Shown here: one piece after another, positions 10,967 to 50,668 of the stretch | Layout: each line of letters begins with the position of its first letter | How positions within the stretch are numbered: position 1 is the stretch's first letter | The notes under the pieces: generated by a model | What the model saw: the letters and a program-made list of their open reading frames with translations, nothing else | Database searches by the model: none | Told to the model about the DNA's origin: nothing | Translations under genes and position numbers: made by a program | From: Escherichia coli | GTDB taxonomy: Bacteria > Pseudomonadota > Gammaproteobacteria > Enterobacterales > Enterobacteriaceae | Strand: one strand, 5' to 3' | Length of the DNA stretch: 64,000 nt | Assembly: GCF_003334785.1 (NCBI RefSeq) | Contig: NZ_QOWV01000005.1

Positions 10967-11698
10967 TCAGGCTGTTACCAAAGAAGTTGCAACCTGGCGC
11001 TCATCAGAAATAATGTGCGTTACCTCATCCAGATGCCCGATGCGGGCTTCCCCTGAACGATTAAATTTACTTTTATCAATCAATAACAACGATTGCGCGG
11101 CACGTTTTAATAGCATCGATTTGTAATCAGCGTTGATCGCATTGGAGTCCCACAGTGCGCCGCTGCTATCGATCCCTTCACAAGAAAAAATAAACAGATC
11201 GATTTCCAGCGATTTAAGTTGGGAAATCAGCGAGGGATTGACGTAACAGCCATATTTGCGCTCAAGTGTGCCGCCGGAACTGATCAGTTGAATGCGTTCG
11301 CGTTTACCGAGTTCATGGCAAATCGGATGGCTATTGGTGAAGACCTGAATGTTGATGTCAGGCAACTGGCGTGCCAGATACCAGCAAGTTGAACTGGCGT
11401 CTAAGGCTATCACCATCCCTTCTTCAATCCACGCGAGCGCCTCGCGCGCGATATCTGCTTTATGCGCATAATGGCTTTTCAGCCTGATGTGAAAGGGATC
11501 GCCACTGTCTTGATTTTGACGGTGGATATATTTAGCGCGTCCATGATTGCGCAGAATTTTACCCTGCGTCTGTAATTCATTGAGATCGCGACGAATGGTT
11601 TCTTTACTGACCTTTAGCTGTTCAGAGAGAGCTTCCGTGGTCAGGCTGGTATGGTTCAGCAGCAGGTCGACTATCGCTTGCTGGCGTGCCGCTTTCAT
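10967..11698 (-). CDS. fucR: L-fucose operon activator FucR (DeoR family)
   Basis: ORF 10967..11707; start MKAARQQAIVDLL gives 243 aa; DeoR-type HTH. Confidence 0.85.
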   Translation of the reverse strand: MKAARQQAIVDLLLNHTSLTTEALSEQLKVSKETIRRDLNELQTQGKILRNHGRAKYIHRQNQDSGDPFHIRLKSHYAHKADIAREALAWIEEGMVIALDASSTCWYLARQLPDINIQVFTNSHPICHELGKRERIQLISSGGTLERKYGCYVNPSLISQLKSLEIDLFIFSCEGIDSSGALWDSNAINADYKSMLLKRAAQSLLLIDKSKFNRSGEARIGHLDEVTHIISDERQVATSLVTA

Positions 11699-15514: not shown

Positions 15515-16831
15515 TCAGTTAGTTGCCGTTTGAGAACGGAAACGGGCAAAGATAAAGATGACCGCGAAGCAGAGTGCGGGGATCAGTTCAGCAGTGGGGA
15601 TGTTGCCCGCCGCGTCACTGACAAAACCCATGACCGGAGTGACAATACCGCCGCCAATAATGGTCATAACGATGAAGGACGAACCATATTTGGTGTCCTG
15701 GCCGAGATTCTTAATGCCCAGCGAGAAGATTGTTGGGTACTGAATCGACATAAAGGCGCTGCATAAAGTCAGGGCTATTAAGCCCACATGACCGCCAGCG
15801 AAGGCTGAGATCAGGCACAGTGCCATAGCGATTAATGCGTAGGCGGCCAGGACTTTGTGTGGTGCGAAGCGACTGATGAGCCAGGTACCGGTGAAACGAC
15901 CAATAAAGAAGCACACCATGGTTCCGGTTAAATAGTTAGCGGCAAAGCCTGCAGTCATACCTGGAATTTCTTCTACAGCGTAGCGAATCAAATAGCTCCA
16001 GCAGGCCGTTTGTGCGCCGACATAGCAGAATTGCGCTAATACCGCCCAGCGCCAGTGGCGAATACGCGCCAGGCGAGAAAGCGATGCGGAGAACGATCCT
16101 TGTTTGGCGTCACTGTGATTATCACTCTGCAATGCCGGGAATTTCGTCAGCATGATCAGCAGGGCGACCAGTAACACGATAGCCACGATGATCATATAAG
16201 GTGTCTGTACCGATAATACCAGGCTGTGTTTATACGCACTCAATTGCTCTGGAGACATTTTATCGAGAACGTCTTGCGATTGATGTGGCACGTTAGACAA
16301 AATAAGACTTTGCCCAAAGACAACCGCGATAATTGCGCCAAACGAGTTAAATGTTTGCGCAAGATTTAAGCGGAAGTGACCACTACTTTCCGGCCCTAAT
16401 ACCGTAACAAAAGGGTTTGCGGCAGTTTCCAGACAACCTAATCCGGCTGCAATAATAAATAGGCCAACTAAAAATAAGGTGTAGTTCATTATTTCTGCGG
16501 CGGGCCAGAATAATGCAGCACCCAAGGCATATAAAAATAACCCGGTAATAATCCCTGCTTTATAACTGAGTTTTTTCATCAATATCCCAGCAGGGATTGG
16601 GATAATGAAATAACCAAAGTAAAAGGCCGATTGGATCAGGCCAGCCTGGAAATTTGTCAGCGTAAAAGCCTGCTGGAATTGAGGTAATAAAATGTCGTTA
16701 AGGTTATTGGCTACCGCCCAAAGAAAAAACAGTGAGCACAGCAGCGCGAATGGAATAATGTAACTTCTGCTTTGCCCTGCATCTTTATCTACCGCACGGT
16801 AACTCTGCGTTTGTATTGATGTGTTTCCCAT
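15515..16831 (-). CDS. fucP: L-fucose:H+ symporter (MFS)
   Basis: 438 aa polytopic MFS protein, first gene of the fucPIKUR unit. Confidence 0.9.
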   Translation of the reverse strand: MGNTSIQTQSYRAVDKDAGQSRSYIIPFALLCSLFFLWAVANNLNDILLPQFQQAFTLTNFQAGLIQSAFYFGYFIIPIPAGILMKKLSYKAGIITGLFLYALGAALFWPAAEIMNYTLFLVGLFIIAAGLGCLETAANPFVTVLGPESSGHFRLNLAQTFNSFGAIIAVVFGQSLILSNVPHQSQDVLDKMSPEQLSAYKHSLVLSVQTPYMIIVAIVLLVALLIMLTKFPALQSDNHSDAKQGSFSASLSRLARIRHWRWAVLAQFCYVGAQTACWSYLIRYAVEEIPGMTAGFAANYLTGTMVCFFIGRFTGTWLISRFAPHKVLAAYALIAMALCLISAFAGGHVGLIALTLCSAFMSIQYPTIFSLGIKNLGQDTKYGSSFIVMTIIGGGIVTPVMGFVSDAAGNIPTAELIPALCFAVIFIFARFRSQTATN

Positions 16832-17019
16832 AGCATCCTCTTAGGTTCAGAAGCTTAAGCACGTAATCGGTTATGTTTTCAAAAGTGCAAAACCAGCGAG
16901 TTCGGGCTTCATATCAGTGAATATTTGCCTGTCTGAAATGAACTCATGGATTCATTTTCAAATAAAAAACGCTCTGTAATATGACGGCGGTCACACTTAT
17001 TAGCTAGAAGGTGACTTTA

Positions 17020-17035
17020 TGTGACTACCATCACT
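17020..17035. promoter_or_regulatory. CRP-like site in the fucPIK/fucAO divergent control region
   Basis: TGTGACTACCATCACT matches TGTGA-N6-TCACA at 9 of 10 positions. Confidence 0.45.
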
Positions 17036-17093
17036 TTAATAATCGAAATTTCATGCCCGTTTCAGAAAATAAATCATAAAAAACACAAATCAG

Positions 17094-17188
17094 ATGACCG
17101 TATTAATTGTTTGTGCCGAAAACGGTCATTCCGGGCTTGGAGGAATAGAAAAATGACCGTTTTGATAAATATTTTTAAGAGCGGTCAT
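17094..17188. promoter_or_regulatory. Two copies of an ATGACCGT-N20-ACGGTCAT inverted repeat (candidate FucR operators)
   Basis: ATGACCGT at 17094 and ACGGTCAT at 17122; ATGACCGT at 17153 and GCGGTCAT at 17181; copies about 59 bp apart between fucP and fucA. Confidence 0.5.
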
Positions 17189-17377
17189 TTTTAATGGGGT
17201 TATAAAAAGAGAACTTGCAGTTATTTACTGTGATTAGTTGAACCAGGTCACAAAATATAAGCTTGTGAATTTCTTTCTTGTTAATCAGGAAGAAGATGGT
17301 GGGTAATTAAACGGCTAATTCAATAGTGTGAAAGGAACAACATTATTGCCCTGTTTTGAATCAGAGAGAGGTAGCTA

Positions 17378-18025
17378 ATGGAACGAAATAAACTTGCTCG
17401 TCAGATTATTGACACTTGCCTGGAAATGACCCGCCTGGGACTGAACCAGGGGACAGCGGGGAACGTCAGTGTACGTTATCAGGATGGGATGCTGATTACG
17501 CCTACAGGCATTCCATATGAAAAACTGACGGAGTCGCATATTGTCTTTATTGATGGCAACGGTAAACATGAGGAAGGAAAGCTCCCCTCAAGCGAATGGC
17601 GTTTCCATATGGCAGCCTATCAAAGCAGACCGGATGCCAACGCGGTTGTTCACAATCATGCCGTTCATTGCACGGCAGTTTCCATTCTTAACCGATCGAT
17701 CCCCGCTATTCACTACATGATTGCGGCGGCTGGCGGTAATTCTATTCCTTGCGCGCCTTATGCGACCTTTGGAACACGCGAACTTTCTGAACATGTTGCG
17801 CTGGCTCTCAAAAATCGTAAGGCAACTTTGTTACAACATCATGGGCTTATCGCTTGTGAGGTGAATCTGGAAAAAGCGTTATGGCTGGCGCATGAAGTTG
17901 AAGTGCTGGCGCAACTTTACCTGACGACCCTGGCGATTACGGACCCGGTGCCAGTGCTGAGCGATGAAGAGATTGCCGTAGTGCTGGAGAAATTCAAAAC
18001 CTATGGGTTACGAATTGAAGAGTAA
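17378..18025 (+). CDS. fucA: L-fuculose-1-phosphate aldolase
   Basis: 215 aa class II aldolase. Confidence 0.95.
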   Translation: MERNKLARQIIDTCLEMTRLGLNQGTAGNVSVRYQDGMLITPTGIPYEKLTESHIVFIDGNGKHEEGKLPSSEWRFHMAAYQSRPDANAVVHNHAVHCTAVSILNRSIPAIHYMIAAAGGNSIPCAPYATFGTRELSEHVALALKNRKATLLQHHGLIACEVNLEKALWLAHEVEVLAQLYLTTLAITDPVPVLSDEEIAVVLEKFKTYGLRIEE

Positions 18026-50546: not shown

Positions 50547-50652
50547 AGGTCTCTAGTAATTGAAATAATAAATAACATGGAAAGCAGAGGTGTTGTGTGA
50601 GAGTAATCACGCTTCTGCTTTTTAAAATTATTTGACAATACGAATATCACAC

Positions 50653-50668
50653 TGTGATTACGATCACA
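50653..50668. promoter_or_regulatory. Consensus CRP site in the yqcE/ygcW divergent control region
   Basis: TGTGATTACGATCACA is a perfect TGTGA-N6-TCACA. Confidence 0.65.

What the first reader, a model, noticed from the sequence alone, without database searches (positions are those of the whole stretch)
17020..17188. Paired inverted repeats and a CRP-like site in the fucPIK/fucAO control region
Two copies of ATGACCGT-N20-ACGGTCAT (the second with one mismatch) lie about 59 bp apart, six helical turns, plus a CRP-like TGTGACTACCATCACT upstream. This fits cooperative binding of a dimeric DeoR-type regulator (FucR) at phased operators driving both divergent fuc promoters.
Basis: partly seen in the sequence, partly recalled or inferred. 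Interest (0 to 1): 0.35.

Follow-up and report, generated by a model that had tools for sequence, protein, structure and literature searches.

The report
Known FucR and CRP sites, fuc regulon
The repeats are the binding sites of the fucose activator FucR, and the CRP-like box is a known CRP site, in the E. coli fucose control region; the main parts are already published and partly tested, but comparing species shows a more ordered, modular layout than has been described.

Summary
ATGACCGT-N20-ACGGTCAT lies at 17094-17129 and a one-mismatch copy at 17153-17188, with none expected by chance. TGTGACTACCATCACT lies at 17020-17035. The window is the E. coli fucPIKUR/fucAO divergent control region. 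The main parts are already published. The two right arms are the mutationally validated FucR sites OFucR2 and OFucR3, and the CRP box is OCrp1 (PMC11011485, PMC11894529). New here, from 50 orthologous regions across at least 15 genera:

1. A fifth conserved half-site lies at 17053-17060.
2. The inverted pair with 28-bp half-site spacing is an almost invariant unit.
3. Two rigid modules exist: OCrp0-40-OCrp1-29-L0-41-L1-28-R1 on the fucP side and L2-28-R2-59/60-OCrp2 on the fucA side. The linker between them varies (20-53 bp).

So the "59 bp, six turns" phasing (really 5.6 turns) is not conserved. The pairs look like promoter-specific operators rather than one phased cooperative array. Published truncations also show that single right arms can activate PfucAO under full induction.

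The parts
16980..16995 (.). CRP site OCrp0 (TATGACGGCGGTCACA). It is proximal to the fucPIK promoter and is also the CRP site used by the IS5 fusion promoter.
   Evidence: 1 mismatch to the CRP consensus. The published 22-mer maps to 16977-16998. Conserved in all orthologues, 39/40 bp from OCrp1.
17004..17007 (.). CTAG, the published IS5 target site between OCrp0 and OCrp1. Insertion there activates fucAO and silences fucPIK.
   Evidence: Published position -374..-371 relative to the fucA ATG maps to 17004-17007.
17020..17035 (.). It serves fucPIK and is not needed for PfucAO.
   Evidence: Published role. Its centre lies exactly 29 bp from the L0 centre in 39 of 39 loci.
17053..17060 (-). L0, a fifth FucR-type half-site. 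It reads ATGCCCGT on the + strand and ACGGGCAT on the - strand, pointing toward fucP.
   Evidence: 14.9 bits. It is a perfect ATGACCGT in most other genera. Conservation 0.90. Fixed 41/42 bp from L1. Its function is inferred, not tested.
17078..17088 (+). Conserved AAA..CACA block at the position where L0's inverted partner would sit (L0+28). It lacks the invariant CGG. Role unknown.
   Evidence: Most genera have AAACCCACAG; Photorhabdus has a genuine half-site, TCGGTCAT, at the same register.
17094..17101 (-). L1, the left arm of inverted pair IR1 (ATGACCGT).
   Evidence: It is dispensable for PfucAO: truncation V5 starts at 17108 and keeps full activity.
17122..17129 (+). R1, the right arm of IR1 (ACGGTCAT). 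It is the core of published OFucR2 (17116-17130).
   Evidence: Published mutation lowers induced PfucAO by about 30%. Always 28 bp from L1 (42 of 43 loci).
17153..17160 (-). L2, the left arm of inverted pair IR2 (ATGACCGT). It shares the highest matrix score (19.3 bits) with R1 and is the best-conserved half-site.
   Evidence: (conservation 0.91). It is absent from truncation V6 (starts 17172), which keeps about 70% activity.
17181..17188 (+). R2, the right arm of IR2 (GCGGTCAT). [quoted passage not shown]
   Evidence: Published mutation gives a >50-fold loss. Its centre lies 59/60 bp from the OCrp2 centre in 40 of 40 loci.
17234..17255 (.). CRP site OCrp2, centred at -70.5 relative to the PfucAO start. 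Essential for PfucAO.
   Evidence: The published sequence maps exactly. Conserved.
17305..17315 (+). PfucAO -10 element (AATTAA, 17305-17310) and the 5'RACE transcription start (C, 17315).
   Evidence: Published -73..-68 and -63 relative to the fucA ATG, mapped.
17324..17345 (.). CRP site OCrp3 in the fucA 5'UTR, an accessory site.
10970..11698 (-). fucR, encoding the DeoR-family L-fucose operon activator presumed to bind the half-sites.
   Evidence: NCBIfam NF007720, 508 bits against a cut-off of 259. ORF.
15515..16831 (-). fucP, the first gene of the fucPIKUR operon.
17378..18025 (+). fucA, the first gene of the fucAO operon.

Best explanation
The interval is the core of the E. coli fucPIKUR/fucAO divergent control region. 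It carries five FucR half-sites (consensus AAACGG[T/G]CAT[T]) lying between CRP sites.

Four of the half-sites form two 44-bp dyads (AAAATGMCCGTTT-N14-AAACGGKCATTTT). Each dyad has an A+T-rich spacer and 28 bp between half-site centres.

My reading is that the array is two promoter-specific modules, not one phased array:
- P-module: OCrp0 (about -41.5), OCrp1 (about -81.5), L0 and dyad IR1. This serves PfucPIKUR.
- A-module: dyad IR2 (R2 at -130.5, L2 at -158.5) and OCrp2 (-70.5). This serves PfucAO.

Fuculose-1-phosphate-bound FucR occupies the dyads, probably with one subunit per arm of a dimer or tetramer across the bendable spacer. From a strictly fixed distance it then helps CRP and RNA polymerase at the adjacent CRP site.

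Shown: the sequence, its conservation and geometry; that R1 and R2 are functional; that OCrp2 is essential; and that the half-sites match the DAP-seq FucR motif.

Inferred: that L0, L1 and L2 bind FucR; that the dyad is the binding unit; that IR1+L0 act on PfucPIKUR; and the fucP start position (about 16946).
For: - Identity of the locus and its parts.
- Published function of R1 (OFucR2), R2 (OFucR3) and OCrp0-3: (PMC11011485, PMC11894529).
- Half-site matrix: exactly 5 sites in the intergenic region, against 0.05 in shuffles. In the rest of the 64-kb window only 9 scattered single sites reach the 12-bit threshold used for that scan, and none is paired.
- In 47 fucP<>fucA regions, 27 have 5 sites and 11 have 4. 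Of 32 fucA-paralogue loci without a closely related divergent fucP, 22 have none.
- L-to-R spacing is 28 bp (74 cases) or 29 bp (11 cases). The only other values (68-71 bp and one at 80 bp) are compound distances across the array.
- Segment lengths over 43 loci in at least 15 genera: OCrp0-OCrp1 39/40; OCrp1-L0 29 (39 of 39); L0-L1 41/42; L1-R1 28; L2-R2 28/29; R2-OCrp2 59/60 (40 of 40). The R1-L2 linker ranges from 20 to 53 bp.
- The 45-bp R2-OCrp2 gap is poorly conserved in sequence (0.46) yet fixed in length. The shorter R1-L2 gap (0.30) varies in length.
- Serratia sp. DD3 has fucAO without a divergent fucP. It carries only one perfect dyad, 59 bp from a CRP-like site, so the A-module can stand alone.
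- Edwardsiella keeps the full array.
- Mutating R2 abolishes PfucAO induction, while mutating R1 costs only 30%. This fits IR2 being the fucAO operator.
- IS5 insertion at 17004-17007 silences fucPIK. It displaces OCrp1 and every FucR site from that promoter.
Against: - No direct FucR footprint exists at these coordinates in the literature I could search. Binding to L0, L1 and L2 is inferred from motif match and conservation.
- Published truncations show that L0 and L1 (V5) and also L2 (V6) are dispensable for most PfucAO activity under full induction. So the dyad is not obligatory for activation.
- Nothing experimental links IR1 or L0 to PfucPIKUR. PMC11894529 only mentions 'putative OR0 and OR1' in a figure legend, without giving positions in the text.
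- A biosensor study fitted a Hill coefficient of 1, which gives no sign of cooperativity.
- The orthologous loci are phylogenetically related, so the fixed spacings are not fully independent observations.
- The oligomeric state of FucR is unknown, and no solved relative was found by sequence.
Confidence: 0.7

Rival explanations
1. The two inverted repeats are helically phased operators, six turns apart, bound cooperatively by dimeric FucR as one array that drives both divergent promoters.
For: Both repeats are real and are FucR-type. Mutating R1 does lower PfucAO by about 30%, so IR1 contributes something to the distal promoter.
Against: 59 bp is 5.6 turns, not six. The pair-to-pair offset ranges from 48 to 82 bp across genera with no common helical phase, while every other spacing is fixed to within 1 bp. 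PfucAO keeps about 70% activity with R2 alone. A lone dyad suffices upstream of fucAO in Serratia sp. DD3.
Confidence: 0.12
2. The published minimal model. FucR acts through independent single 15-bp sites (OFucR2, OFucR3). The left arms are incidental or serve only as separately acting, oppositely oriented sites for fucPIK (L-type sites for fucP, R-type sites for fucA).
For: Truncations V5 and V6 and the point mutants show that single right arms work without their left partners. Orientation correlates with promoter direction. The 2025 paper lists two putative sites for fucPIK and two for fucAO.
Against: L-to-R spacing is 28/29 bp in 85 of 85 adjacent pairs across genera. L2 keeps a fixed distance to R2 and OCrp2 but a variable distance to the fucP-side module, the opposite of what is expected if L2 served fucP independently. 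L2 is the best-conserved half-site. The Serratia sp. DD3 fucAO-only locus retains both arms.
Confidence: 0.15
3. A FucR tetramer bridges IR1 and IR2 and loops the intervening DNA, as described for other DeoR-family regulators. The loop is what activates or represses transcription.
For: Multiple operators and higher oligomers are typical of DeoR, GlpR and UlaR. This is from general knowledge and was not tested here. Two dyads do lie close together.
Against: A 50-80 bp loop would need strict helical phasing, which is not conserved. IR1 is largely dispensable for PfucAO. A single dyad suffices in Serratia sp. DD3.
Confidence: 0.03
4. The inverted repeats act as nucleic-acid structures (a cruciform, an RNA hairpin or a terminator) rather than as protein sites.
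For: They are inverted repeats.
Against: The arms are only 8-10 bp with a 16-20 nt A+T-rich loop and no T-tract. No terminator-like site was found. The region lies upstream of both mapped or inferred start sites. Within the arms, conservation follows the FucR motif: CGG and CA are invariant and the central base is free. It does not follow base pairing.
Confidence: 0.01

Closest known systems
FucR operators OFucR2/OFucR3 (OR2/OR3) and CRP sites OCrp0-OCrp3 of the E. coli fuc regulon (Zhang et al. 2024, PMC11011485; 2025, PMC11894529; FucR motif from Baumgart et al. 2021 DAP-seq)
   Same: These are the same DNA. All published strings map exactly onto the window.
   Different: The papers treat the FucR sites as two single 15-bp sites. 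In the text I could read, they do not describe the left arms, the 28-bp dyad, the fifth site at 17053-17060 or the cross-species modular geometry. Searches for 'palindrom' and 'inverted repeat' found no such description. 'Putative OR0/OR1' appear only in a figure legend.
Operators of other DeoR-family regulators (DeoR, GlpR, AgaR, UlaR); from general knowledge, not tested here
   Same: There are multiple operators per control region, a sugar-phosphate effector, and a protein with an N-terminal winged helix and a C-terminal sugar-phosphate-binding domain. FucR matches the family models.
   Different: FucR is an activator that works with CRP from far upstream (-130 and beyond). The others are repressors overlapping the promoter. 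The FucR half-sites are 28 bp apart in inverted orientation, rather than forming compact palindromes or tandem repeats. No conserved phasing between operators suggests looping.
CRP-coactivated sugar promoters with dyad sites of widely spaced half-sites (RhaS/RhaR at rhaBAD/rhaSR, MelR at melAB); from general knowledge
   Same: There are divergent or paired sugar promoters. A specific activator binds long dyads whose half-sites are separated by about 16-20 bp. Spacing to a CRP site is strict, and activation is synergistic.
   Different: Those activators belong to the AraC family and sit next to or overlapping the -35 element, with CRP upstream. Here the DeoR-family activator sits upstream of CRP.

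Membership tests
Published FucR operators of the E. coli fuc regulon (OFucR2/OFucR3) | Sequence identical to the published 15-mers, at the published positions relative to the fucA ATG | tested here: met
   CCGAAAACGGTCATT lies at 17116-17130 (-262..-248). TTAAGAGCGGTCATT lies at 17175-17189 (-203..-189).
Published FucR operators of the E. coli fuc regulon (OFucR2/OFucR3) | Match to the DAP-seq FucR consensus (..AAACGG[T/G]CA[T/A]T) | tested here: met
   All five half-sites carry the invariant CGG-N-CA. The flanking AAA was not part of the 8-mer seed (except its last A), and it emerges from 202 orthologous sites. Consensus as quoted.
Published FucR operators of the E. coli fuc regulon (OFucR2/OFucR3) | Mutation reduces FucR-dependent induction | not testable with these tools
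   Published for R1 (about 30% loss) and R2 (>50-fold loss). No data exist for L0, L1 or L2 beyond truncations showing they are dispensable for PfucAO.
Published FucR operators of the E. coli fuc regulon (OFucR2/OFucR3) | Direct physical binding of FucR at these coordinates (footprint, EMSA or ChIP) | not testable with these tools
   Only the DAP-seq-derived motif is cited. No footprint was found in the literature searches.
CRP-cAMP binding site | Match to TGTGA-N6-TCACA | tested here: met
   17020-17035 has 1 mismatch. A second site at 16980-16995 also has 1 mismatch.
CRP-cAMP binding site | Conserved in orthologous regions at a fixed position | tested here: met
   Present in essentially all fucP<>fucA regions, 39/40 bp from OCrp0 and 29 bp from L0.
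CRP-cAMP binding site | Functional dependence on CRP | not testable with these tools
   Published: OCrp0 and OCrp1 are important for fucPIK and are not needed for PfucAO.
Helically phased cooperative or looping operator pairs (DeoR/GlpR/UlaR style) | Operator-to-operator distance conserved in length or in helical phase | tested here: not met
   The IR1-IR2 offset runs from 48 to 81.5 bp (4.6 to 7.8 turns) across genera, and from 52 to 59 bp within Enterobacteriaceae.
Helically phased cooperative or looping operator pairs (DeoR/GlpR/UlaR style) | Both operators required for regulation | tested here: not met
   From published data: PfucAO keeps about 70% activity without IR1 and L2. There is a lone dyad in Serratia sp. 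DD3.
Dyad operator bound as a unit by a symmetric oligomer | Invariant half-site spacing and symmetric arms across species | tested here: met
   Spacing is 28/29 bp in 85 of 85 adjacent L-to-R pairs. The consensus arms are symmetric: AAAATGMCCGTTT and AAACGGKCATTTT.
Dyad operator bound as a unit by a symmetric oligomer | Both arms needed for binding or function | tested here: inconclusive
   Published truncations say a single arm suffices for PfucAO at full induction. Conservation argues for selection on both arms. No binding data exist.
DeoR-family regulator (the protein, FucR) | Full-length match to the FucR equivalog and to DeoR-family models | tested here: met
   NF007720 scores 508 bits (cut-off 259). 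Weaker matches to GlpR, AgaR, SrlR, UlaR and DeoR models.

The most novel reading that the evidence does not exclude
FucR recognises a 44-bp dyad whose half-sites are 28 bp apart, an unusually wide geometry for a DeoR-family protein. The fuc control region is built from two autonomous activator modules, each locked at a fixed distance to its own CRP site (29 bp on the fucP side, 59.5 bp on the fucA side). This implies a stereospecific FucR-CRP or FucR-alphaCTD contact from upstream of CRP. The left arms and L0 would matter only at limiting FucR, setting induction threshold and kinetics, which is why saturating reporter assays missed them.
Probability: 0.45. Interest if true: 0.4.

Novelty: already known. 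Interest (0 to 1): 0.25.

Why it matters
The fuc regulon is a classic system for divergent promoters, for IS5-mediated activation and for the experimental evolution of propanediol use. Fucose use also matters for gut colonisation.

The comparative result does give testable predictions that the published reporter work did not address:
- the dyad, not the 15-mer, is the conserved unit;
- there is a fifth site next to OCrp1;
- distances to the CRP sites are fixed to the base pair, while the link between the two halves is free.

If confirmed, this would explain how one activator coordinates two divergent CRP-dependent promoters. It would also give the first operator architecture for a DeoR-family activator.

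Tried and rejected
- Sigma-70 and terminator consensus scan of 16832-17377 found nothing. This fits activator-dependent promoters and argues against a hairpin or terminator reading.
- PDB sequence search with FucR found no relative at E<=1e-3, so no structural test of the 28-bp span was possible.
- Podolny et al. 1999 (PMC94201), which mapped the fucPIK CRP sites, is not held. The fucP start (about 16946) therefore remains my inference, from OCrp0 sitting at -41.5 and from the legend quoted.
- Literature searches for FucR plus inverted repeat, SELEX, ChIP-exo or DAP-seq found no footprint or architecture description. The Baumgart et al. paper itself was not available.
- I looked for a true inverted partner for L0 in E. 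coli. The +28 position scores -13.8 bits, so it is not a FucR site, although a conserved AAA..CACA block sits there.
- The Photorhabdus rows were mis-paired by my script (L0/R0 taken as IR1). I use the offsets instead.
- The other matrix hits in the window (for example 4498, 49954 and 51745) are isolated and unpaired, at about the chance rate, and were dismissed.

Full report
**1. What is in the sequence**

The window is E. coli. The 546-bp stretch 16832-17377 is 100% identical to E. coli chromosomes and occurs in 5025 of 5426 complete genomes. It lies between fucP (15515-16831, minus strand) and fucA (17378-18025, plus strand). fucO lies downstream of fucA, and fucI, fucK, fucU and fucR lie downstream of fucP.

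The fucR product (10970-11698, minus strand) matches the NCBIfam equivalog "L-fucose operon activator" at 508 bits (cut-off 259). It also matches other DeoR-family models more weakly.

- IR1: ATGACCGT (17094-17101), N20, ACGGTCAT (17122-17129).
- IR2: ATGACCGT (17153-17160), N20, GCGGTCAT (17181-17188).
- The two are offset by 59 bp.

Allowing up to two mismatches, the gapped pattern occurs nowhere else in 64 kb and never in 100 shuffles. TGTGACTACCATCACT is at 17020-17035, and a second CRP-like box, TATGACGGCGGTCACA, is at 16980-16995.

**2. What is already known**

Two recent papers dissect this region (PMC11011485, 2024; PMC11894529, 2025). Every site string they print maps exactly onto the window:

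| Published element | Window coordinates | Note |
|---|---|---|
| OFucR2 (CCGAAAACGGTCATT) | 17116-17130 | right arm of IR1 |
| OFucR3 (TTAAGAGCGGTCATT) | 17175-17189 | right arm of IR2 |
| OCrp0 | 16977-16998 | |
| OCrp2 | 17234-17255 | |
| OCrp3 | 17324-17345 | |
| PfucAO -10 | 17305-17310 | |
| 5'RACE start | 17315 | |
| IS5 target CTAG | 17004-17007 | |

It is therefore the published OCrp1.

The FucR motif came from a DAP-seq study (Baumgart et al. 2021, as quoted). The published functional results are:
- Mutating OFucR2 lowers fucose-induced PfucAO by about 30%.
- Mutating OFucR3 lowers it more than 50-fold.
- Mutating OCrp2 abolishes activity.
- OCrp0 and OCrp1 are assigned to fucPIK and are not needed for PfucAO.

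The core of the finding is therefore a rediscovery of published elements.

Neither paper's readable text mentions the left arms, a palindrome or an inverted repeat. The 2025 paper names "putative" fucPIK operators OR0 and OR1 only in a figure legend.

**3. What the comparison of species adds**

A search with FucA returned 80 loci in Enterobacterales. Forty-six of them have a closely related divergent fucP. Three Edwardsiella loci with a more distant, 44-46% identical FucP relative were added later.

*Matrix and specificity.* I built a weight matrix from the orthologous half-sites. It recovers AAACGG[T/G]CAT[T]. The AAA flank was not part of the 8-mer seed (except its last A), and it agrees with the published consensus. 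The matrix finds exactly five sites in the E. coli region:

| Site | Start | Score (bits) | Shorthand |
|---|---|---|---|
| ATGCCCGT | 17053 | 14.9 | L0 |
| ATGACCGT | 17094 | 15.3 | L1 |
| ACGGTCAT | 17122 | 19.3 | R1 |
| ATGACCGT | 17153 | 19.3 | L2 |
| GCGGTCAT | 17181 | 13.1 | R2 |

Shuffles give 0.05 sites and no pairs. Of the 47 fucP<>fucA regions (46 loci plus the window), 27 have five sites and 11 have four. Of 32 control loci, which are fucA paralogues without a closely related divergent fucP, 22 have none.

In a 24-sequence alignment all five half-sites stand out as footprints (identity 0.79-0.91, against 0.63 for the whole region). Within each, CGG and CA are near-invariant and the central base is free.

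*Dyad shape.* Aligned, the pairs form a 44-bp dyad, AAAATGMCCGTTT-N14-AAACGGKCATTTT. The spacer is 82% A+T, and its centre is not conserved in sequence.

**4. Geometry**

Start-to-start L-to-R spacing is 28 bp (74 cases) or 29 bp (11 cases). The only other values (68-71 bp and one at 80 bp) are compound distances across the array. Segment lengths across 43 loci in at least 15 genera are as follows:

| Segment | Length (bp) |
|---|---|
| OCrp0 to OCrp1 | 39/40 |
| OCrp1 centre to L0 centre | 29 (39 of 39 loci) |
| L0 to L1 | 41/42 |
| L1 to R1 | 28 (42 of 43 loci) |
| L2 to R2 | 28/29 |
| R2 centre to OCrp2 centre | 59/60 (40 of 40 loci) |
| R1 to L2 linker | 20 to 53 |

The variable linker gives the following pair-to-pair offsets:
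- 59 bp in Escherichia;
- about 56 bp in Salmonella, Klebsiella and Citrobacter;
- 48 bp in Photorhabdus and Mangrovibacter;
- 66-82 bp in Yersinia.

The Photorhabdus rows were mis-paired by my script, so I use for that genus.

The 45-bp R2-OCrp2 gap is poorly conserved in sequence (0.46) but fixed in length. The shorter R1-L2 gap (0.30) varies in length. This argues for a spacing constraint rather than simply a lack of indels.

Two natural variants support modularity:
- Edwardsiella keeps the full five-site array.
- Serratia sp. DD3 has fucA-fucO behind a co-directional LacI-type regulator gene, with no divergent fucP. It carries one perfect dyad (ATGCCCGTTT...AAACGGGCAT, 28-bp spacing) with its right arm 59 bp from a CRP-like box.

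**5. Interpretation**

The phasing idea is not supported: 59 bp is 5.6 turns, not six, and the offset is not conserved in length or in phase.

The layout instead suggests two modules:
- A fucP-side module: OCrp0, OCrp1, L0 and IR1.
- A fucA-side module: IR2 and OCrp2.

Relative to the PfucAO start (17315), OCrp2 is at -70.5, R2 at -130.5 and L2 at -158.5. If the fucP start is near 16946, OCrp0 is at -41.5, OCrp1 at -81.5, L0 at -110.5 and IR1 at -151.5/-179.5. That start position is my inference, consistent.

The published phenotypes fit this reading. R2 is essential for PfucAO and R1 is only accessory. IS5 insertion at 17004-17007 silences fucPIK, and it separates that promoter from OCrp1 and from every FucR site.

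**6. What argues against an obligate dyad**

The published truncations map as follows:

| Construct | Starts at | FucR half-sites retained | PfucAO activity |
|---|---|---|---|
| V5 | 17108 | R1, L2, R2 (L0 and L1 lost) | full |
| V6 | 17172 | R2 only | about 70% |
| V7 | 17212 | none | most activity lost |

Under full induction, then, a single right arm suffices. L2 adds nothing measurable, although it shares the top matrix score with R1 and is the best-conserved half-site.

I reconcile this with the invariant 28-bp spacing as follows. The second arm may raise affinity when FucR is limiting. FucR is positively autoregulated and abundant in the conditions that were assayed. This is inference.

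A biosensor study fitted a Hill coefficient of 1. No FucR footprint was found in the literature I could search, and no structure of a sequence relative was found.

**7. Rivals**

- The published "independent 15-mers" view, or an "orientation" variant in which L sites serve fucP and R sites serve fucA. It explains the truncations. It does not explain why L2 is locked to R2 and OCrp2 while floating relative to the fucP side.
- Looping between the two dyads. This is disfavoured by the unphased, variable linker.
- A nucleic-acid-structure role. This is excluded for practical purposes: there is no terminator, the region is upstream of both starts, and conservation follows the protein motif rather than base pairing.

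**8. Verdict**

The elements are already known. The added value is a sharper, testable architecture: five half-sites, a 28-bp dyad unit, and two CRP-locked modules joined by a free linker. Interest is low to moderate.

Noticed in passing
window 17078-17088: There is a conserved block (E. coli AAAAAACACAA; most genera AAACCCACAG) exactly where an inverted partner of L0 would lie (L0+28). It keeps the AAA and CA of the FucR motif but lacks the invariant CGG. Photorhabdus has a genuine half-site, TCGGTCAT, in the same register. It could be a decayed half-site, a weak contact, or another factor's site.
   Followed up: partly
window 16980-16995 (OCrp0) and orthologues of OCrp2 (E. coli 17234-17255): Several of these CRP sites contain (C/T)GGTCAC, one base away from the FucR half-site CGGTCAT. 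In some genera they score about 12 bits with the FucR matrix. Overlapping CRP and FucR specificity is possible.
   Followed up: no
window 16890-16898 (fucP 5'UTR); locus L081: The human gut isolate E. coli EC25 carries an IS1A insertion with a 9-bp target duplication (AAACCAGCG) in the fucP leader. It lies outside the FucR/CRP array. It may affect fucPIKUR expression, by analogy with the laboratory IS5 mutants.
   Followed up: partly
window 17263-17268 versus 17282-17287: PMC11011485 gives the PfucAO -35 element as TTGtgA at -96..-91. In this sequence TTGTGA lies at -115..-110, 36 bp from the stated -10 element, and -96..-91 reads TAATCA. The published -35 assignment and its coordinates are inconsistent. 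The -10 element and the start site do map correctly.
   Followed up: partly
locus L056 2310-2408 (Serratia sp. DD3): This is a fucA-fucO operon without a divergent fucP. It is preceded by a co-directional LacI-type regulator gene, a single perfect FucR-type dyad, and a CRP-like box at the canonical 59-bp distance. It would be a useful minimal natural test case.
   Followed up: partly
window 50596-50611 and 50653-50668: Two CRP-consensus matches lie 57 bp apart, one of them perfect (TGTGATTACGATCACA). They are unrelated to the fuc locus.
   Followed up: no
E. coli reference-type genomes L001-L003 versus the window, position 17126: R1 is ACGGTCAT in the window but ACGGGCAT in other Escherichia representatives. 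This is natural T/G variation at the one degenerate core position of the motif, consistent with the DAP-seq consensus T(G).
   Followed up: no
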